Under the pieces are notes generated by a model. The model worked only from the letters and a program-made list of their open reading frames with translations. It did not search any database and was not told the origin of the DNA. Below, piece by piece: positions 38 to 52,165 of a DNA stretch of 64,000 bases (the first letter of the stretch is position 1; the number at the start of each line of letters is the position of its first letter). Source of the DNA: a virus; IMG/VR virus record IMGVR_UViG_3300037804_000367, positions 32,001 to 96,000 of that record, one strand, 5' to 3'. The translations under genes were made by a program, and so were the position numbers.

Positions 38-113
38 TGGAGCCGCCTGACAGAATCGAACTGACATTCCTGCATTACAAAAGCAGTTTCTTAAGCCATT
101 AGAAGAAGGCGGC
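38..113 (-). tRNA. tRNA-Thr(UGU)
   Basis: Cloverleaf; anticodon arm CTGCT-TTTGTAA-TGCAG; T loop TTCGATT; encoded CCA. Confidence 0.88.
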
Positions 114-123
114 ATTTAAAACT

Positions 124-199
124 TGGTGGAGAATACCGGCCTCGAACCGGTGTCGGGTGGGTGCAAGCCACCTGTTTTATCCATCTAAACTAATTCCCC
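124..199 (-). tRNA. tRNA-Ala(UGC)
   Basis: GGTGG-CTTGCAC-CCACC anticodon arm; G3:U70; encoded CCA. Confidence 0.95.
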
Positions 200-219
200 A
201 AAAATCTTTACTATAGTGA

Positions 220-738
220 CTACCCTAACGACAGCCCTCTTGCACTTCTACCATTACCTTTATTTCGTCCGCCAAATGTTTCAGTCTGACTATGACAATT
301 AGGACAAATTAATCTCAAGTTAGTTGGAAAGTTATTTCCTGCGTTCCCGTCGATGTGGTCTACTTGTAGTGTTAAAGGCTTGTTATTATATTCACTTATA
401 TTACATAGTGCACATTTATATCCTTGATCATGAGTTAAGCAACGTCTCAGGGTATTTCTAGTTTCTATCAATCCGTCTCTAAATCTACAAAGGGTAGTGT
501 TCTCAAATTTATAGTTTGCTTGGCAAATATTATTACAGTATATTTTTTTACTATGTTTTATATCTGCTTTACAATACTTACAATTTGATAATCTACCTTT
601 ATATGATCGTAATGTATTTGTAACCGTTGCTCTACATGATTTACTACAGAACTTGTTTGTTCTTTGTTTAAATGTTAACATGCTGTTACAGCACTGACAA
701 TATTTTGGATGTTCACTATATATTTGTTTTGTTATCAT
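220..738 (-). CDS. HNH (homing-type) endonuclease with N-terminal Cys-rich zinc-binding repeats
   Basis: DHIDGN...NLRLICPNCHSQT HNH motif; CxxC repeats; AGGAG RBS; inserted between tRNAs. Confidence 0.9.
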   Translation of the reverse strand: MITKQIYSEHPKYCQCCNSMLTFKQRTNKFCSKSCRATVTNTLRSYKGRLSNCKYCKADIKHSKKIYCNNICQANYKFENTTLCRFRDGLIETRNTLRRCLTHDQGYKCALCNISEYNNKPLTLQVDHIDGNAGNNFPTNLRLICPNCHSQTETFGGRNKGNGRSARGLSLG

Positions 739-756
739 TTCACATCTCCTTTCTAT

Positions 757-764
757 TATTTATA
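757..764 (-). promoter_or_regulatory. T4-type late promoter box TATAAATA
   Basis: Exact TATAAATA just upstream of the RBS of the HNH gene. Confidence 0.55.
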
Positions 765-803
765 ATATACAGGAGTCGAACTCACTAGCACAAGTTAAAA
801 AAG

Positions 804-877
804 TGCAACGTACCGGTCTCGAACCGATCTTATTTCTCGTTGGCAACGAGATGCCATACCAACTAGGCGAACGATGC
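804..877 (-). tRNA. tRNA-Gly(GCC)
   Basis: TCTCG-TTGCCAA-CGAGA anticodon arm; T loop TTCGAGA. Confidence 0.92.
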
Positions 878-935
878 ATGTAAAATTTACTTCTATCTTC
901 TATCACATGTTATAAAACAGATCAATGTTAAAATA

Positions 936-1009
936 TGGCTACCCCGACTGGTTACGATCCAATCCTAACTCTTTCAAAGAGAGCTGTGCTACCAATACAC
1001 TACAGGGCA
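936..1009 (-). tRNA. tRNA-Gln(UUG) with atypical T loop (ATCGTAA)
   Basis: GCTCT-CTTTGAA-AGAGT anticodon arm; CCA encoded; A54/U58 T loop. Confidence 0.85.
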
Positions 1010-1020
1010 GTCTAAAAAGT

Positions 1021-1096
1021 TGGCGGTATAGACGAGAGACGATCTCGCAACCTTCCGATAGACAATCGGATGCTCTGCCAATTGAGCTACTATACC
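1021..1096 (-). tRNA. tRNA-Asp(GUC) with atypical T loop (ATCGTCT)
   Basis: TCCGA-TTGTCTA-TCGGA anticodon arm; G73; CCA encoded. Confidence 0.85.
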
Positions 1097-1103
1097 AATT
1101 AAG

Positions 1104-1185
1104 TGCCGCCTCTGGGTAACGATCCCAGCGAGCATAATGCGCAGGTTTTACAGACCTGATCCCCTCCTTAGAGATATACAACGGC
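1104..1185 (-). tRNA. tRNA-Tyr(GUA), long variable arm, atypical T loop (ATCGTTA)
   Basis: CAGGT-CTGTAAA-ACCTG anticodon arm; class II variable arm; A73. Confidence 0.85.
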
Positions 1186-1194
1186 TTAAAATAA

Positions 1195-1267
1195 CGGTTC
1201 ATACGAGATTTGAACTCGTGTTCCGCCCGTGACAGGGGCGTGTCCTAACCAACTAGACGAATGAACC
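1195..1267 (-). tRNA. tRNA-Asp(GUC), canonical second copy
   Basis: CGCCC-CTGTCAC-GGGCG; T loop TTCAAAT; G73. Confidence 0.95.
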
Positions 1268-1276
1268 TTAAAAGTT

Positions 1277-1894
1277 TTATTTTTTTCTTGTTTTATAAGT
1301 GCTGGTTTGAGAATGACAATTAGGACATAACATTCTCAAATTAGAAATTTCATTATTCCTATGATCACCGTTAATATGATCAACATCCAAAGTAATATCA
1401 TTTCCTAACCAGTTTGTCAAATGACAGCTAGAGCAAATATTCATATCTAATATTTTGAATTTCTTTACTGCTCTGCTAATACTACTCCTATCATACTCAC
1501 TATTTTTACAAAAAATCAATTCTCTTGTCCATTCCTTTTTCCCTCTCCTATATGATTTTTTTAAATCAAAATGTTCTAAACTTAGATTATGTTCTTTGAT
1601 CTTCAATTTCACATTTTTTATATTATTATTATGATAAGTTAAATTTAATTGTTTTAATACATCAGCCATACAAATTGAATTAGCAATAGCTGATTTTAAG
1701 TCATTAATGCTATATCTCATACTTCTACGACAAAGCAAAATTCCATTTTGCGTTAGCCTTTCTGAAAGGATTTCTCGCACTCCAGTGTCTTGACTTTCTA
1801 TAACCTTTAAAATATTTGAGATTGATTTGTGTTTATAATACAAATCACAAAGTTCAACATCTGTCATTTTTCGTACAATTTCTCTTTTCGTCAT
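1277..1894 (-). CDS. HNH (homing-type) endonuclease
   Basis: DVDHINGDHRNNEISNLRMLCPNCHSQT; start taken as MTKRE because the ATG at 1924 abuts the late box. Confidence 0.9.
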   Translation of the reverse strand: MTKREIVRKMTDVELCDLYYKHKSISNILKVIESQDTGVREILSERLTQNGILLCRRSMRYSINDLKSAIANSICMADVLKQLNLTYHNNNIKNVKLKIKEHNLSLEHFDLKKSYRRGKKEWTRELIFCKNSEYDRSSISRAVKKFKILDMNICSSCHLTNWLGNDITLDVDHINGDHRNNEISNLRMLCPNCHSQTSTYKTRKK

Positions 1895-1924
1895 AATGGC
1901 ACCTCTTATTGTTACACCTGTCAT

Positions 1925-1932
1925 TATTTATA
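1925..1932 (-). promoter_or_regulatory. T4-type late promoter box TATAAATA
   Basis: Exact box about 30 nt upstream of the HNH start. Confidence 0.55.
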
Positions 1933-2010
1933 ACAACTATAGCACTAACTGTGCCCTAACAACTACATAAAATAAAGAGGAAATCAACAGACTTTCTTAC
2001 TGAATTTTAA

Positions 2011-2175
2011 TGGGAAGTGTAGGAATCGAACCTACGAATGTTTACAAAAGCTCATCAGCCTCATTCAACTTGATCGGCGCTAACCCTAATCAAGCGGTAA
2101 ACTCTAAGTCACTTAGCCTCCATGACCTATTTGTGTGCCCGATGACGCTAATCATCATCATCTCATCTACTTCCC
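2011..2175 (-). ncRNA. tRNA-like RNA (acceptor + T arm) with expanded multi-hairpin core, 165 nt
   Basis: GGGAAGT/ACTTCCC-A acceptor; GTAGG-TTCGATT-CCTAC T arm; interior hairpins and no canonical anticodon arm. Confidence 0.65.
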
Positions 2176-2193
2176 AGTAAATTGTTTGTAAAG

Positions 2194-2267
2194 TACTACA
2201 GGAGAGATTTGAACTCTCAGTCACCTGTTTATCAGACAGGCGGCTTAACCAATTTGCCTACCGTAGT
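2194..2267 (-). tRNA. tRNA-Ile(GAU)
   Basis: CCTGT-CTGATAA-ACAGG; T loop TTCAAAT. Confidence 0.93.
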
Positions 2268-2276
2268 AAAAGTGAG

Positions 2277-2409
2277 TGGGGTCGGTAGGAATCGAACCTA
2301 CTTACAACTTTATCCAAGCATTAAGTAATAGCTTATTACTTTCACTATTTAGCCTAGTGATTAATTTTAAGGATATCTAAACAAGTTGCTCTTCCACTAA
2401 GCAACCCCA
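2277..2409 (-). ncRNA. tRNA-like RNA with a 65-nt structured insert in the anticodon arm
   Basis: TGGGGTTG/CGACCCCA acceptor; D-like arm; AACTT/AAGTT stem enclosing GTTTAGA plus a TATCC...GGATA insert; canonical T arm. Confidence 0.65.
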
Positions 2410-2427
2410 TGTAAATTTTTAATAAAT

Positions 2428-2504
2428 TGGTGCGACATGAGAGACTCGAACTCTCAACATCCACATTGGAAGTGTGGCACTCTAGCCAATTGAGTTAATG
2501 TCGC
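2428..2504 (-). tRNA. tRNA-Gly(UCC)
   Basis: CCACA-CTTCCAA-TGTGG; encoded CCA. Confidence 0.95.
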
Positions 2505-2588
2505 ATTTAAAAGTACCGCCGTGATATTGATCTATGGTGTCGACCCCTTCGATCTTCAAACCCTTAGAGTGAGCTTATATTACTCAAG

Positions 2589-2660
2589 TGGAGGACACGG
2601 GACTCGAACCCACAATGCCGGCAGTTTGCCGGTGAAGTTAACCAATTACTTCCAATCCCC
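2589..2660 (-). ncRNA. tRNA-like RNA with Ala identity (G3:U70, A73) but a non-canonical 5-nt anticodon loop
   Basis: GGGGGAT/GTCCTCC-A; CCGGC-AAACT-GCCGG; T loop TTCGAGT. Confidence 0.65.
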
Positions 2661-2749
2661 CGAGCAACATTATTCACACCGTTCGGGTTTGTTTTTATAT
2701 CACGACTTGGCATCCCCATCCTCCCTTTCGGGACTCCGCTTCTGCCTGA

Positions 2750-2821
2750 CTGATCTAGCTGGACTCGAACCAACATTTTACAAATTAACAGTTTGCTGCA
2801 TTACCATTATGCTATAGACCA
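2750..2821 (-). tRNA. tRNA-Asn(GUU)
   Basis: GCAAA-CTGTTAA-TTTGT; G73; T loop TTCGAGT. Confidence 0.92.
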
Positions 2822-2830
2822 AGGTAAAAA

Positions 2831-2973
2831 ACATTTACTTAACATTTAAATCTTTATCATTCGGCGTAGTTAGTTTAAAAACTACCTTTAGGATGTTCCC
2901 CGTCTGAAAATGTTTGGTGGATTCGCAGAGTTGATGATAAATATCCTTGTCGGTTCCGTTGTTAAGTAAATGT
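2831..2973. ncRNA. Candidate structured RNA closed by a perfect 14-bp inverted repeat
   Basis: acatttacttaaca (2831-2844) / tgttaagtaaatgt (2960-2973); inner tttatcat/atgataaa stem. Confidence 0.45.
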
Positions 2974-3041
2974 AAAGATGTATTTAATTTAGGGTACTGC
3001 TGTAACCATTACGCTACATTACGGTTCTAACTTAGATACAA

Positions 3042-3112
3042 TGGCGGGTGCCGGACTCGAACCGACGTGCGAGGCTTATGAGACCCCTGAGTGACCACTA
3101 CTCTAACCCGCT
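3042..3112 (-). tRNA. tRNA-Met(CAU), initiator-like
   Basis: CTCATAA loop; mismatch at 1:72; G-rich 5' anticodon stem. Confidence 0.85.
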
Positions 3113-3335
3113 ACAAAAAGTAAGCCTCTATATTTTTGTTATCTCGGAGGTTGACACTTACCCGTCCTCCGACTACTCATAATTTTTAAAATGGTGGATC
3201 GCTTATTTTTCATGATCGTCCACACCGTAACACTTTATAAACAAACTAGTATTTATTATAAAGCTTATACCTGCTTCACGAACCGCCTGACCATTATCCG
3301 AATTGTTTTAGTTTCGGCAACTACAGTTGTTAAAA

Positions 3336-3459
3336 AGCCCACCACTGGAATCGAACCAGTTCCTAGAGTCGGGTTTGTTCCTTTGCGAAGCGCTTCACTC
3401 GGGACCTCCATCTAATATAACCTCAGCAAGTGAGTGCTCTACCAATGAGCTAAATGAGC
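3336..3459 (-). ncRNA. tRNA-like RNA/pseudo-tRNA with expanded anticodon region (124 nt)
   Basis: Canonical D arm GCTC-ATTGGTA-GAGC and T arm ACTGG-TTCGATT-CCAGT flank a roughly 70-nt insert. Confidence 0.55.
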
Positions 3460-3474
3460 ATGTTGTTTGTAAAA

Positions 3475-3535
3475 TGGCGCTGGAACTAGGAGTGCATGCC
3501 TAGATTTACCATCCCTATCCTAAGGGACGTCCAAC
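3475..3535 (-). ncRNA. D-armless mini tRNA-like RNA ending in CCA (61 nt)
   Basis: GTTGGAC/TTCCAGC-G-CCA with two 5-bp hairpins (GTCCC/GGGAT, CTAGG/CCTAG). Confidence 0.4.
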
Positions 3536-3541
3536 ATTTAG

Positions 3542-3615
3542 TATTCCAGACGGGGCTCGAACCCGCAATCTTCTGCGTGAAAGGCAGACGAGATGACCAA
3601 TTACTCCACTGGAAC
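3542..3615 (-). tRNA. tRNA-Glu(UUC)
   Basis: TCTGC-CTTTCAC-GCAGA; T loop TTCGAGC. Confidence 0.93.
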
Positions 3616-11361: not shown

Positions 11362-11398
11362 TTTTGTTTCCTTACTACATCTTTCGTTTACCTATACT

Positions 11399-11426: not shown

Positions 11427-11725
11427 CCTCAAAGTCAAACTATTTGCAATAAAAATTATCCTATACATTTCCACATTGTTGCTATTATATTATCAACCTG
11501 TTTATGAACATCTTTCATAGTAGGCTCTTCTAGGGGCACACCACAAAAGTTTCCACTGTAAAAACTCCAGCCTTGATGATCCTCAGTGTAATACACAGAC
11601 CCAAACCCTATAACCTTGTTAACCGTAAAGTAATATGAAGGCTCACAATCACATTCATCTTCACAATCACAATAATCTGTTAGGCATCTAACATTACTAT
11701 CTTTGTATCTATGAGTGCTCATTAT

Positions 11726-12415
11726 CTAGTTATCCTTATTGTGTTTACGAAGCAGCTTCGCCTTGTATGTGCTAGCTTTGTTATTGATACAACAATTGCA
11801 CTTTCCACACGGCCGCCCTTTTTTACCCTCAGTACCTTCACAGTACCAACATAAGTGAGATAGAGTTGACTCGCGCATGTCATTAATAACATCAGCCTTA
11901 GTATTAAATATGAGAGGTAGCTTTAGTCCGTCTACCTTCTTACCATTTATAATAGCAAGATGCTTCCATATTTGTTTGGCACTATGTATCAGTTCACTAT
12001 CATAATCATCCTTGAGCCAACTTATGTATACATCCTCATCCATCTTACTCATCATACTAGCTAGAGAGATCCATAAGCTAGGCTGACAGCCCTGACCATG
12101 TAGTTGATTGTGTAGGTCTATAGTTAGCTCTTGATGATCCCAATCACAAATGTCATAAATCTTTAACATACGTTTCTTTAATTTCTTCCTAGCCTTCTTC
12201 TCCATCTTTTGTTGACGATTGGAGATCTGATCAATATCAAACGCAATTGTTCTTACACTACCCGGAGTACTGTTTTGAAGAATGTTGATTAGAGTTAGAG
12301 TAGAATCGAGACCGCCCGTCCATAGTACTAACTTGTTTGTACTAGCTTCATTAGTTTTTATCATCTTTATATTAACCTTTGACATTACGTTTAATCTTAA
12401 AAAAATTTTACACAC
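11726..12415 (-). CDS. queC: QueC-like 7-cyano-7-deazaguanine synthase (PP-loop ATPase)
   Basis: N-terminal LWTGGLDST PP-loop; C-terminal CWYC...PCGKCNCC zinc site. Confidence 0.7.
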   Translation of the reverse strand: MCKIFLRLNVMSKVNIKMIKTNEASTNKLVLWTGGLDSTLTLINILQNSTPGSVRTIAFDIDQISNRQQKMEKKARKKLKKRMLKIYDICDWDHQELTIDLHNQLHGQGCQPSLWISLASMMSKMDEDVYISWLKDDYDSELIHSAKQIWKHLAIINGKKVDGLKLPLIFNTKADVINDMRESTLSHLCWYCEGTEGKKGRPCGKCNCCINNKASTYKAKLLRKHNKDN

Positions 12416-12994
12416 TGTTGTTGTTTAACCGTTATACAATGCACTATTGTCCTTGGGGAGATAGCATGGGTTATAGTGACTTGAATTTTAACCATTATTG
12501 ATTTGTTGGTTATTTTAGTAGACTAGTCTTTGGTATAACCTTTATGTGTTGTTTGTTGTGTAATGCATGTATTATATTATCTTAGCAAGTTGCGTTATAG
12601 TTACATCATATCCACGAATTAGTACAGTTATTATACGATCGTTGTATACAACTATGTACATGGGTGTATTGATTTACCCTATCGTTGATCGAGAAGTTAT
12701 TAGACCGTAGGACAAAAGCTGCTTAGCACATTGCCGTTGAATGAGCCGTTTTACGCAAAAATCGTAAAAACGCTATATACACGTATTTTAGCTATTGAGA
12801 TAACGTCTCACGCAGATTGCGGTATACTAGCCGTTAGTACACGATTTAAGTAATCATAGATACAACAACTCGTTATACGTAGGAATGCGTAAGATATAGT
12901 TTTTGGTATAAACGTCGTTATGAATAGTTGTATTATTCAATAATAGCATTTGACCATATACTAATACAATTGGTAATACATTCTACTACGAATA

Positions 12995-50838: not shown

Positions 50839-50873
50839 AAAAAAGAGCGCCTTTTTATGGGCGCTCTTTTTTT
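50839..50873. terminator. Intrinsic terminator closing the suppressor-tRNA/PTH2 operon
   Basis: A6-gagcgcc-ttttta-tgggcgctc-T7. Confidence 0.85.
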
Positions 50874-51183
50874 AGTTCATTAATTGAAACTTTCTGAAGA
50901 ACTGTCTGTCGTCTCCATGAATTGGTTCCGTTGCAATAGCAGTCATTTGATTTCCAATATCTGGTTCAAAGAATGCTCTGAATTTAACTTGCAATTTTTC
51001 AGCAATTGTTTTTAACTTGTGTTCGCTTTTTACAGTAACAATAATAACTGATGGATGTTCCTGTCCAGGTTTGATAAATGCTCGCGAAGCTTCAATTGCA
51101 GCATGTGCAGACTGTACAGCTTTTTGGGCATTTGATAAATCATTCCTAATAAGAACGTACATGTATTTTGGGACCTATGTCAT
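50872..51183 (-). CDS. PTH2-like peptidyl-tRNA hydrolase; in-frame TAG at codon 3 (ATG ACA TAG GTC CCA AAA TAC ATG...)
   Basis: YVLIRNDLS.AQKAVQSAHAA...FFEPDIGNQMTAIA; ATG at 51183 abuts the upstream TAA; internal ATG at 51162 is the alternative start. Confidence 0.8.
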
Positions 51184-51519
51184 TTAAGCTACCTCTTCAA
51201 CTTCTACAGTTTCCGAAATGACTTGATGAACTACTGCTTCAAGTTTTTTATAACTGTTACTAAATCCGTTCTTAAACTCGTTATCATTGTGAGTATGACT
51301 TGGTTTGTTACGAAACTCATTGTAAATGATATGAAGCAACGTAAGGTTTGTTGCAAAAGAATTTGGTCTTAGTGTATTTTCTAATCTCCAATCTCCGTCT
51401 CTCTGAGCTTGTTTAAACTCAGGTTTGCGAATCTTCTGTGCTTCAGTTAGTTTTATGATTTCACTTTTTAGGGTAGAAACTACTGCTTTGTATTGTGCTC
51501 TTGTGATATTCGTATTCAT
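51184..51519 (-). CDS. Hypothetical helical protein co-transcribed with PTH2
   Basis: CGGAGA RBS 6 nt upstream; 111 aa. Confidence 0.75.
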   Translation of the reverse strand: MNTNITRAQYKAVVSTLKSEIIKLTEAQKIRKPEFKQAQRDGDWRLENTLRPNSFATNLTLLHIIYNEFRNKPSHTHNDNEFKNGFSNSYKKLEAVVHQVISETVEVEEVA

Positions 51520-51584
51520 TTTCTTTCTCCGAAATATTATTTAATTAAGTGTTTGTTTTTATAAAATGGGTAATCCATTTTCAC

Positions 51585-51614
51585 TTACGGAGAGTTGTTA
51601 CGTATCTACATCAT
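51585..51614 (-). promoter_or_regulatory. Leader minigene ATG-ATG-TAG (read-through product MMxIRNNSP*) with an anti-SD segment
   Basis: AAGGA RBS 8 nt upstream; read-through codons TCT CCG complement the CGGAGA SD at 51526-51531. Confidence 0.55.
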
Positions 51615-51698
51615 GATACAATTCCTTTTATTGTTGTTTTTACTTATATTAAAATCTAATACAAAGTGACACTACCTTGTACTTTTTTAATATTAAAA

Positions 51699-51771
51699 TG
51701 CCCAGTGTGGGGATCGAACCCACGTCTCAAGGATTTAGAATCCAGCGCAATAACCGCTATACTAACTGAGC
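51699..51771 (-). tRNA. Amber suppressor tRNA (anticodon CUA)
   Basis: GCTCAGT/ACTGGGC-A acceptor; GGA-TTCTAAA-TCC arm; canonical numbering puts CUA at 34-36; GTGGG-TTCGATC-CCCAC T arm. Confidence 0.85.
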
Positions 51772-51782
51772 TTAAAATTAAA

Positions 51783-52091
51783 TTAACCTACGTGAGTAAA
51801 TAATAAAGATTTTGCTTCCATTCCAAAAGCATTTTTAAATCTTTCCTTGTATTCTTCAACTTTTGAAAAATCTAAATCCTTTGACATATTAAATCCAATA
51901 TATGTATCATCATCTTCAGGACCAGATAAACAATTTTCAAACTGAACGTCAAATGCAAAATTATCTTTAAAATATTCATTATCGTCCCAAGCAGGAAGAT
52001 CAGCGATTTCTCTTACAGTCAACCCAATATCCTGTACGGATCGACCAATCATTAGTACAGCTTCATACTCGTAACTCATTTCAAACTCCAA
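51783..52091 (-). CDS. Acidic hypothetical protein, first gene of the suppressor operon
   Basis: Follows the 52120 promoter; ends 11 nt before the tRNA. Confidence 0.7.
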   Translation of the reverse strand: MEFEMSYEYEAVLMIGRSVQDIGLTVREIADLPAWDDNEYFKDNFAFDVQFENCLSGPEDDDTYIGFNMSKDLDFSKVEEYKERFKNAFGMEAKSLLFTHVG

Positions 52092-52119
52092 TGTTTATTA
52101 GCTCTTTCTTACTAATATT

Positions 52120-52147
52120 AATATACATCCTTAACTAGACAAGTCAA
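52120..52147 (-). promoter_or_regulatory. Early-type promoter of the suppressor/PTH2 operon
   Basis: TTGACT-N16-TATATT. Confidence 0.8.
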
Positions 52148-52165
52148 CCTCAAACACAAAGTATT

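What the first reader, a model, noticed from the sequence alone, without database searches (positions are those of the whole stretch)
50839..52147. Amber-gated operon: suppressor tRNA(CUA), ATG-NNN-TAG minigenes and a PTH2-like hydrolase
Seen: one unit bounded by a consensus promoter (52120-52147) and a terminator (50839-50873) contains a 102-aa ORF, a tRNA with anticodon CUA (51699-51771), an RBS-led minigene ATG ATG TAG (51614-51606), a 111-aa ORF and a PTH2-like gene. The PTH2 start coupled to the upstream stop reads TAA ATG ACA TAG GTC CCA AAA TAC ATG TAC GTT..., so TAG is codon 3 and is in frame with the enzyme. Both minigenes have amber at codon 3, while long genes elsewhere in the window have no in-frame TAG. 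Established: two-codon minigenes (lambda bar type) cause peptidyl-tRNA drop-off that needs Pth, and CUA tRNAs suppress UAG. Inference: a self-contained circuit in which PTH expression is switched on by amber read-through (charged suppressor tRNA or limiting RF1). It could sense translation status or counter tRNA-sequestering or tRNA-targeting defences. I do not recognise this as a described system.
Basis: partly seen in the sequence, partly recalled or inferred. Interest (0 to 1): 0.93.

Follow-up and report, generated by a model that had tools for sequence, protein, structure and literature searches.

The report
Amber-gated phage tRNA-hydrolase operon
A marine phage that otherwise uses the normal genetic code carries its own UAG-reading tRNA in a small operon whose leader and tRNA-hydrolase-like gene each hold an early UAG, and dozens of distant phages keep this layout; I found no description of it in the papers I searched.

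Summary
One promoter-to-terminator unit (52147-50839, minus strand) holds a 98/102-aa ORF, a tRNA(CUA), an SD-led ATG ATG TAG mini-ORF, a 111-aa ORF and a Pth2-fold gene whose SD-led start reads ATG ACA TAG in frame.

It is not chance. In 72 non-redundant homologous phage loci, 45 have ATG + 1-9 codons + TAG in frame just before the Pth2-like domain. Of these, 37 have no start codon after the TAG. 54 loci have a tRNA-CUA within 3 kb. One lineage has TGA with a tRNA-UCA.

The genome uses the standard code: 38 of 273 predicted genes end in TAG.

New here:
- The mini-ORF looks like a regulatory leader, not a bar-type minigene. The last codons of its read-through frame (UCUCCG) pair with the SD (CGGAGA) of the 111-aa gene, with a compensatory change in a relative. 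The same design is predicted in 12 of 15 leaders.
- The 111-aa protein belongs to a conserved, unnamed family that always sits beside the Pth2-like gene.

What the hydrolase does is unknown. This scan has reported the same module on other genomes. My literature searches found no description.

The parts
52109..52152 (-). Promoter: -35 TTGACT (52147-52142) and -10 TATATT (52125-52120), inside a 44-nt phage-specific promoter element
   Evidence: Consensus scan, 10/12 matches. The 44-nt element recurs at least 7 times on the minus strand of the genome with 5-9 mismatches. Other seawater contigs match only this stretch.
51783..52079 (-). First gene of the unit: 98 aa from ATG 52079 (102 aa if started at TTG 52091). 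Function unknown.
   Evidence: ORF list. GGAG lies 6 nt before ATG 52079. No Pfam or PHROG hit.
51699..51771 (-). tRNA with anticodon CUA (amber suppressor type). Class I, discriminator A73, no encoded CCA, only 3 Watson-Crick pairs in the anticodon stem.
   Evidence: ARAGORN. Rfam tRNA 52.6 bits. No close paralogue among the genome's other 29 tRNAs (at most 66% identity).
51585..51627 (-). Leader mini-ORF: SD AAGGA (51627-51623), then ATG ATG TAG (51614-51606), then the read-through frame ATA CGT AAC AAC TCT CCG TAA, ending at 51585. The anti-SD TCTCCG is at 51593-51588.
   Evidence: Sequence. Conserved in L011, L015 and L095 with TAG early and exactly 6 codons after it. Amber mini-ORFs are enriched upstream of the cassette genes: TAG 42, TAA 30, TGA 15, against 7/16/11 on the opposite strand.
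51526..51593 (-). Predicted SD-sequestering helix: TCTCCG (51593-51588) pairs with CGGAGA (51531-51526), the SD of the 111-aa gene. Two inner stems lie between the strands.
   Evidence: MFE -19.9 kcal/mol, z -2.69. RNAalifold predicts the same helix, with a GC to AU compensatory change in L015. P(SD paired) = 1.0, all of it with the read-through-only segment.
51184..51519 (-). 111-aa all-helical protein, a member of a conserved unnamed family of about 100 aa (motif L-x-x-L-H-I-I-Y-x-x-x-R here; YRHxHIAYxxLRGK in distant members). The family always neighbours the Pth2-like gene.
   Evidence: hhalign of the close group against the distant group: prob 90%, E 1.5e-6. An HMM finds the family in 45 loci, directly upstream or directly downstream of the Pth2-like gene. 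AF2 pLDDT 87.9; no PDB, Pfam or PHROG match.
51175..51195 (-). Amber leader of the Pth2-like gene: SD GAGG (51195-51192), ATG (51183-51181) abutting the TAA of the 111-aa gene, ACA, then TAG (51177-51175) followed by G.
   Evidence: Sequence. The only such leader in the genome. Conserved in L015 and L095, and in 45/72 non-redundant loci.
50872..51183 (-). Pth2-fold hydrolase-like gene. 103 codons if UAG at codon 3 is read through (M-T-X-VPKY-MYVLIRNDL...); 96 aa if started at ATG 51162.
   Evidence: Pfam PF01981 21.3 bits. 112 homologues. AF2 pLDDT 96.5. Foldseek top hits are Pth2/Bit1. Profile against PDB Pth2: E 1e-7. Tyr at -1 of the internal Met is conserved in homologues with uninterrupted N-termini.
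50839..50872 (-). Intrinsic terminator directly after the Pth2-like stop codon
   Evidence: 13-bp stem (6 GC pairs), 8-nt loop, T-run.

Best explanation
The unit is one sigma70-type transcript that encodes an amber-suppressor tRNA and a two-tier UAG read-through switch. The switch controls two conserved proteins: a helical protein of about 105 aa, and a Pth2-fold tRNA-ester hydrolase.

Tier 1. A 9-codon leader ORF (M-M-UAG-I-R-N-N-S-P-UAA) has its last two sense codons (UCUCCG) base-paired with the Shine-Dalgarno sequence (CGGAGA) of the 111-aa gene. A ribosome that stops at UAG (codon 3) stays 12 nt short of that helix. Only a ribosome that reads through UAG reaches and melts it, and the Pro-stop ending probably holds it there. 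That frees the SD.

Tier 2. The Pth2-like gene starts at the SD-led ATG 51183, which abuts the stop of the 111-aa gene, and has UAG as codon 3. Read-through yields the full protein.

Output therefore follows the activity of charged tRNA(CUA) relative to RF1, roughly as its square for the hydrolase.

Shown: the anatomy, its conservation, the fold, the predicted pairing and one covariation.

Inferred: that the tRNA is expressed and charged, that read-through occurs, and that the helix blocks initiation.

Most likely purpose (inference, about 30%): a closed loop in which the hydrolase acts on the ester of the suppressor tRNA (aminoacyl or peptidyl form) and so caps UAG read-through in a phage whose own genes still end in UAG.
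For: 1. In-frame early TAG in the Pth2-like leader. The window and its close relatives L015 and L095 have it. L011 keeps the same leader in front of a gene inserted there. It is present in 45 of 72 non-redundant IMG/VR loci, with TAG at codon 3 in 27 of them, and 37/45 have no ATG/GTG/TTG between the TAG and the conserved domain.

2. tRNA-CUA lies in the 6-kb locus in 54/72 cases. L072/L073 have TGA in the leader and a tRNA-UCA nearby.

3. The base after the leader TAG is a purine in 44/45 loci, against 21/38 for terminal TAGs of this genome (p 1.8e-6).

4. SD GAGG serves ATG 51183, and ATG 51162 has none. Tyr -1 is conserved in homologues that have uninterrupted N-termini, two of which carry Ile in place of the internal Met. 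P0106 has Gln where L004 has TAG.

5. Standard code. 38/273 predicted genes end in TAG. Domain hits in ORF pairs merged across a TAG stay on one side of it. No other gene in the genome has such a leader.

6. Leader helix. RNAalifold and the MFE fold both pair the end of the mini-ORF with the next SD, with one compensatory change. In 12/15 diverse leaders, at least 89% of SD pairing is with the read-through-only segment. The spacing of 6 codons after the UAG is conserved in 4 relatives.

7. Pth2 fold.
Against: - Nothing is experimental. No RNA run holds the locus.
- In the window and its closest relatives an ATG lies 4-5 codons after the TAG, so termination-reinitiation could give the 96-aa protein without the tRNA.
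- The window's tRNA has a weak anticodon stem (two mismatches) and no encoded CCA.
- 38 phage genes end in TAG and show no excess of back-up stops, so a strong suppressor should be costly.
- The Lys that I recall as catalytic in archaeal Pth2 is not conserved in this family.
- The covariation in the leader helix rests on one pair in four close sequences.
- 3 of 15 leaders pair their SD elsewhere.
- The 25 'no-leader' loci show that the Pth2-like gene does not always need its own amber.
Confidence: 0.72

Rival explanations
1. Coupling cistron. ATG-ACA-TAG is an ordinary two-codon ORF that only hands ribosomes from the 111-aa gene to ATG 51162 by termination-reinitiation. The Pth2-like protein is the 96-aa form, and the nearby tRNA(CUA) is irrelevant to it.
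For: ATG 51162 lies 12 nt after the TAG. The close relatives L015 and L095 also have an ATG there. The window tRNA has a weak anticodon stem.
Against: 37/45 distant loci have no start codon after the TAG; the domain begins with CTA, TTA or GTC codons there. The stop is TAG, not the commoner TAA, and is followed by a purine in 44/45. One lineage has TGA with a tRNA-UCA. Tyr -1 is conserved. ATG 51162 has no SD.
Confidence: 0.1
2. The two ATG-NNN-TAG minigenes exist to provoke peptidyl-tRNA drop-off or tRNA sequestration, and the Pth2-like enzyme relieves it.
For: Both have two sense codons before the stop and a good SD. By established knowledge, short ORFs terminate poorly and favour drop-off.
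Against: Leader length before the TAG varies from 1 to 9 codons. The frame after the TAG is conserved in length in the close relatives and ends in an anti-SD paired with the next SD. The second 'minigene' is in frame with a conserved protein that mostly has no other start.
Confidence: 0.05
3. Genome-wide TAG reassignment (code 15). The in-frame TAGs are ordinary sense codons of a recoded phage.
For: Phage-encoded tRNA(CUA). One relative (L002) has a second in-frame TAG inside the domain.
Against: 38/273 genes end in TAG. ORF totals gain less from TAG read-through than from TGA or TAA read-through. Domain hits do not cross TAGs. No other amber leader exists in the genome. In the 6-kb flanks of relatives the median ORF gain is 1.25 for TAG against 1.5 for TGA.
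Confidence: 0.02
4. Decay. The TAG is a disabling mutation in a dying Pth2-like gene, and the CUA tRNA is a mutated ordinary tRNA.
For: Weak anticodon stem. The Pfam score is below the cut-off.
Against: The TAG is position-specific in a non-conserved leader across 45 lineages, while the domain stays intact. The AF2 model has pLDDT 96.5. The same allele is seen in four seawater metagenomes.
Confidence: 0.02

Closest known systems
Stop-codon-recoded phages with phage-encoded suppressor tRNAs (TAG read as Gln, 'code 15'; Borges et al., bioRxiv 10.1101/2021.08.26.457843; Peters et al., PMC9523058)
   Same: A phage-encoded tRNA(CUA) lets in-frame TAG be translated. Those authors propose that this regulates when certain phage genes are made.
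   Different: Here the genome uses the standard code, and TAG still ends 38 genes. The in-frame TAGs are confined to the cassette's own leader and one gene, at codon 3, in a non-conserved N-terminal leader. The clients are translation-related, not lysis or structural genes.
prfB (RF2) autoregulation through an early in-frame UGA (recalled from textbook knowledge)
   Same: An early in-frame stop in a translation-factor gene makes that gene's synthesis depend on how efficiently the stop is recognised.
   Different: prfB is rescued by a +1 frameshift and senses its own product. Here the rescue is by a dedicated suppressor tRNA. Whether the hydrolase feeds back on the read-through is unknown.
Leader-peptide translational attenuators (ermC, cat, tnaC type; recalled knowledge)
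   Same: A short SD-led leader ORF, and an SD of the next gene sequestered by pairing with leader sequence. The position of the ribosome on the leader decides whether the SD is free. The Pro-stop ending is of a kind known to slow release.
   Different: The signal would be nonsense suppression at a UAG, not an antibiotic or an amino acid. I know of no such sensor having been described.
Archaeal/eukaryotic Pth2 (PF01981; PDB 2zv3, 3erj, 1wn2, 1xty, 1q7s)
   Same: Same fold (TM 0.70-0.77), with shared R-D-L, Q..HA and D-x-G...T-A motifs.
   Different: About 20 residues shorter (96 aa against 115-120) and only 17-25% identical. The Lys I recall as catalytic is not conserved. Activity and substrate are unknown.
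Lambda bar minigenes (AUG AUA stop; recalled knowledge)
   Same: Two sense codons, a stop and a strong SD.
   Different: Here the frame beyond the stop is conserved and functional-looking. The stop is always the one read by the co-encoded tRNA.

Membership tests
Pth2 peptidyl-tRNA hydrolase (PF01981) | Sequence match to the family model above its curated cut-off | tested here: inconclusive
   The window protein scores 21.3 bits against a cut-off of 23. Many homologues carry precomputed PF01981 hits. The family profile hits PDB Pth2 entries 24bt (E 1.1e-7) and 2zv3 (E 9e-7).
Pth2 peptidyl-tRNA hydrolase (PF01981) | Pth2 alpha/beta fold | tested here: met
   AF2 pLDDT 96.5. The top 11 Foldseek hits are all Pth2/Bit1, prob 1.0, TM 0.70-0.77.
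Pth2 peptidyl-tRNA hydrolase (PF01981) | Catalytic residues (Lys and Asp of archaeal Pth2; numbering recalled from memory, not checked) | tested here: inconclusive
   Asp68 (in E-P-D) is nearly invariant, and Gln17, His20 and Thr74 are invariant. The Lys14 position varies (K/Q/R/A) across the family.
Pth2 peptidyl-tRNA hydrolase (PF01981) | Hydrolysis of peptidyl- or N-acyl-aminoacyl-tRNA | not testable with these tools
   Needs an enzyme assay.
Amber suppressor tRNA | Cloverleaf tRNA with anticodon CUA | tested here: met
   ARAGORN. Rfam 52.6 bits. The anticodon stem has two mismatches.
Amber suppressor tRNA | Expressed, CCA-tailed, aminoacylated, and able to decode UAG | not testable with these tools
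   No RNA holder is listed for this DNA. The identity of the inserted residue is unknown. The 61 distinct suppressor tRNAs aligned here (60 CUA, one UCA) differ in acceptor stems and discriminators.
Code-15 (TAG-recoded) phage | In-frame TAG in many genes, with TAG not used as a terminator | tested here: not met
Leader-peptide translational attenuator | SD-led short leader ORF upstream of the regulated gene | tested here: met
   AAGGA-N8-ATG. Conserved in 4 close relatives and recurrent in distant loci.
Leader-peptide translational attenuator | SD of the regulated gene sequestered by pairing with leader-ORF sequence | tested here: met
   Prediction only. One compensatory pair. Seen in 12/15 leaders.
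Leader-peptide translational attenuator | Ribosome position on the leader controls downstream initiation | not testable with these tools
   Needs reporters or toeprinting.
Lambda bar-type minigene | Two-codon ORF whose expression sequesters tRNA and is toxic when Pth is limiting | not testable with these tools
   The shape fits (two sense codons plus a stop), but the conserved read-through frame points to another role.

The most novel reading that the evidence does not exclude
A self-contained homeostat for nonsense suppression in a standard-code phage. A new kind of leader-peptide sensor reads the level of UAG read-through and, through two amber gates in series, sets the amount of a Pth2-like enzyme. 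That enzyme, together with its conserved helical partner, hydrolyses the ester of the suppressor tRNA itself. The phage thereby holds a controlled, low level of UAG read-through. This would also explain what the 'orphan' CUA tRNAs of cultured jumbo phages such as XacN1 are for.
Probability: 0.25. Interest if true: 0.92.

Novelty: new variant of a known kind. Interest (0 to 1): 0.85.

Why it matters
Suppressor tRNAs in phages that keep the standard code have had no known target. The XacN1 paper says so explicitly (PMC5852040).

This cassette supplies a target. It is a dedicated operon whose own leader and whose tRNA-hydrolase-like gene carry the matching stop codon.

If the model holds, three things follow:
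- It would be the first leader-peptide switch that senses nonsense suppression.
- It would be a natural example of suppressor-gated gene expression, the design used in synthetic biology.
- It may be a stepping stone toward the full stop-codon reassignment seen in crAss-like and Lak phages.

It also flags two protein families, the short Pth2-like enzymes and the helical partner of about 100 aa, as likely actors on tRNA. In database records these genes are often missing or truncated because gene callers stop at the TAG.

Tried and rejected
- **Near-identical DNA search in INPHARED:** no match. The phage has only distant relatives.
- **IMG/VR scan with the 111-aa protein:** nothing. Only 2 sequence homologues besides itself turned up in the large protein collection. 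One of them sits on a contig whose DNA could not be fetched.
- **Public runs:** no RNA holder is listed. The four seawater DNA runs I laid on the stretch show the same allele and no variants, so they give no population evidence on the TAG.
- **Complex prediction on the Pth2-like and 111-aa proteins:** no verdict.
- **Structure of the 111-aa protein:** Foldseek and Atlas searches gave only generic helical bundles. Pfam and PDB profile searches on the family were empty, and PHROGs scans of three members found nothing.
- **The domain of about 170 aa fused to Pth2-like in some relatives:** by eye it looked HD-like to me. Pfam gives no HD hit, only phrog_14850 of unknown function, so that reading stays a lead.
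- **Test for selection against read-through of this phage's TAG-ended genes (back-up stops):** no signal.
- **Which amino acid the tRNA carries:** could not be decided. It has no close paralogue in the genome, and the CUA tRNAs of relatives are heterogeneous.
- **Code-15 recoding:** considered and rejected.
Full report
**What is in the window**

The window is bases 32001-96000 of a 128,786-bp phage genome. The genome has 34% G+C and 30 tRNA genes. Its DNA is held by seawater metagenomes. It has no near relative among cultured phages.

On the minus strand, between 52152 and 50839, lies one compact unit:
- a sigma70-type promoter, TTGACT-16-TATATT;
- a 98-aa ORF;
- a tRNA with anticodon CUA at 51771-51699;
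- an SD-led mini-ORF, ATG ATG TAG;
- a 111-aa ORF;
- a Pth2-like gene;
- a strong intrinsic terminator.

The promoter sits in a 44-nt element that recurs at least seven times on the same strand of the genome, so it belongs to a real promoter class of this phage.

**The Pth2-like gene**

The 96-aa ORF scores just below the Pfam cut-off for PF01981. It has 112 homologues. Its AlphaFold model, built on 86 sequences, has pLDDT 96.5. The best PDB matches of that model are all archaeal Pth2 or human Bit1, at TM 0.70-0.77. A family profile finds PDB Pth2 entries at E 1e-7. It is therefore a short, divergent Pth2-fold protein. Whether it has Pth2 chemistry is open: the Asp of the D-x-G motif is nearly invariant, but the Lys I recall as catalytic is not conserved.

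**The amber in its leader is selected**

The stop of the 111-aa gene is followed at once by ATG ACA TAG GTC CCA AAA TAC ATG. These codons are in frame, with GAGG 8 nt before the first ATG and no SD before the second.

Close relatives:
- L015 (74% identical protein) reads ATG ATG AGT ACT TAG ... TAC ATG.
- L095 (82%) reads ATG ACT TAG GGC CAA TAT ATG.
- In L011 (87%) the same ATG TTA TAG leader now precedes a 168-aa gene inserted at that point.

Profile-guided scan of IMG/VR. This gave 85 loci, 72 of them non-redundant at 90% identity:
- 45 have ATG, 1-9 codons, then TAG in frame. In 44 of these the TAG lies 3-10 codons before the conserved domain.
- TAG is codon 3 in 27 of the 45.
- In 37 of the 45 there is no ATG, GTG or TTG between the TAG and the domain, which then begins with codons such as CTA, TTA or GTC. 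Read-through is the only evident way to make the protein.
- A tRNA-CUA lies within the 6-kb locus in 54 of 72.
- One lineage (L072/L073) has TGA in the leader and a tRNA-UCA 3 kb away.
- The base after the leader TAG is A or G in 44 of 45. Terminal TAGs of this genome are followed by a purine in 21 of 38 (p 1.8e-6). From established work on E. coli, which I recall, a 3' purine favours amber suppression.

Homologues without a TAG have a short N-terminal extension ending in Tyr just before the position of the internal Met, and two of them have Ile instead of that Met. The window encodes that Tyr upstream of ATG 51162. One homologue has Gln where a close relative has TAG.

Cultured carriers. In phage GAP32 the frame reads ATG GCA CAA TAG, and the deposited annotation is truncated. 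In XacN1 the leader ATG AAG TAG precedes ORF364.

**The genome is not recoded**

My rough gene call gives 273 genes, of which 38 end in TAG. Reading TAG as sense lengthens ORFs less than doing the same for TGA or TAA. The few ORF pairs joined across a TAG have domain hits confined to one side. The Pth2-like gene is the only gene with an SD-led amber leader. The 6-kb flanks of relatives also show no general TAG read-through signal.

**The mini-ORF is a regulatory leader, not a bar minigene**

Between the tRNA and the 111-aa gene, four relatives align poorly except for one element. That element is AAGGAATT-N5-ATG, one to three sense codons, TAG, then exactly six codons ending TCT CC(G/A) TAA.

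- TCTCCG is the reverse complement of CGGAGA, the SD of the 111-aa gene.
- In L015 the pair is TCTCCA with TGGAGA, a compensatory change.
- RNAalifold predicts this helix without being told.
- The window's MFE fold contains it (-19.9 kcal/mol, z -2.69).
- In the ensemble the SD is fully paired, entirely with the segment that is translated only after read-through.

Geometry. A ribosome with UAG in the A site sits 12 nt short of the helix. A ribosome that has read through ends on Ser-Pro-UAA, on top of the anti-SD. This is an inference from the known reach of the ribosome's entry channel, which I recall.

The same design appears in distant loci. Amber mini-ORFs with an SD are enriched upstream on the coding strand: TAG 42, TAA 30, TGA 15, against 7/16/11 on the other strand. 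Many of them end in Ser-Pro or Pro-Pro codons, that is CUCC or CCUCC. In some a second UAG must also be read through. In 12 of 15 leaders examined, at least 89% of the predicted SD pairing is with the read-through-only segment.

**A fourth conserved part**

The 111-aa protein has only two sequence homologues besides itself in the large collection. A profile comparison links it (prob 90%, E 1.5e-6) to a family of about 100 aa. An HMM finds that family in 45 of the loci. It lies directly upstream of the Pth2-like gene where that gene has a normal start and the tRNA follows it. It lies directly downstream where the Pth2-like gene has the amber leader. The model is an all-helical bundle (pLDDT 87.9) with no informative match. 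A paralogue lies next to the phage's main tRNA cluster.

The cassette thus has four parts: a suppressor tRNA, an amber leader with anti-SD, the helical protein, and the Pth2-like protein.

**How it most likely works**

Both proteins are made only in proportion to UAG read-through, that is to charged tRNA(CUA) relative to RF1. The hydrolase sits behind two gates in series. The anatomy, the conservation and the fold are shown. Expression and charging of the tRNA, the read-through itself, and the blocking role of the helix are inferred.

Why a phage would do this is not settled. The cassette's only evident clients are its own genes, and early in-frame recoding sites usually serve autoregulation (prfB). 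My preferred reading, at about 30%, is therefore a feedback loop in which the hydrolase acts on the suppressor tRNA's ester and limits read-through of the phage's 38 TAG-ended genes. Other possibilities are a clean-up role for peptidyl-tRNA, a delay timer, or an anti-defence role.

Points against:
- An ATG lies 12 nt after the TAG in this lineage, so reinitiation is possible.
- The window tRNA's anticodon stem is weak.
- There is no excess of back-up stops after TAG-ended genes.

**Known or new**

Full-text searches for Pth2 or peptidyl-tRNA hydrolase together with suppressor tRNA and phage found no description. The XacN1 paper states that the targets of its two CUA tRNAs could not be identified. 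The closest known systems are the code-15 phages with suppressor tRNAs, prfB autoregulation, and ermC-type leader attenuators.

Earlier agents of this scan reported the same module on other genomes. I reached the gating reading before that look-up, and here I tested the leader, the covariation and the cultured-phage claims myself. The anti-SD mechanism of the leader and the conserved helical partner family do not appear in the eight summaries I was shown.

Noticed in passing
window 52109-52152, with further copies starting near 11388, 15244, 28711, 30828 and 36367 (minus strand): A 44-nt promoter element (GTTGACTT.TCTAGTTAAGG.TGTATATTA.TAT.AGTAA) is repeated at least 7 times in the genome. It is probably this phage's own promoter class. 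A weaker look-alike follows the terminator at 50827-50800.
   Followed up: partly
genome 27658-28065 (minus strand; outside the window, about 4 kb before its start): A paralogue of the 111-aa helical protein (motif RLTALHILYNKIR) lies just beside the main cluster of 27 tRNA genes. This hints that the family deals with tRNA.
   Followed up: partly
L011:3447-4001; L020 and L023 (about 185 codons upstream of the domain); XacN1 ORF364 (L092): A domain of about 170 aa (phrog_14850, function unknown; an H..HD.GKP..H..D motif by eye, no Pfam hit) is inserted behind the ATG-NNN-TAG leader in L011. In other phages, including cultured XacN1, it is fused in frame to the Pth2-like domain.
   Followed up: partly
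L093 (Cronobacter phage GAP32), and records listed with 'none' under the match: In several cultured jumbo phages (Yersinia fHe-Yen9-04, Erwinia pEa_SNUABM phages, Serratia BF) the Pth2-like gene is not annotated at all. In GAP32 it is truncated. This is presumably because the early TAG removes the start.
   Followed up: partly
window 38-3615: Twelve tRNA genes of the phage's large tRNA cluster. In all, the genome has tRNAs for every amino acid except Tyr, plus one ARAGORN call with an aberrant two-base anticodon (genome 31787-31856).
   Followed up: no
window 11456-12424; genome 107235-109055 and 1332-2219: A QueC-like gene and two sulfotransferase-family genes. These are possible nucleic-acid or surface modification functions. 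Each is TAG-terminated and followed in frame by another ORF.
   Followed up: no
window 1-64000: Only 8 ORFs of 250 aa or more in 64 kb, and 249 of 273 predicted genes lie on one strand. This is a region of very small genes, not a sign of recoding.
   Followed up: partly
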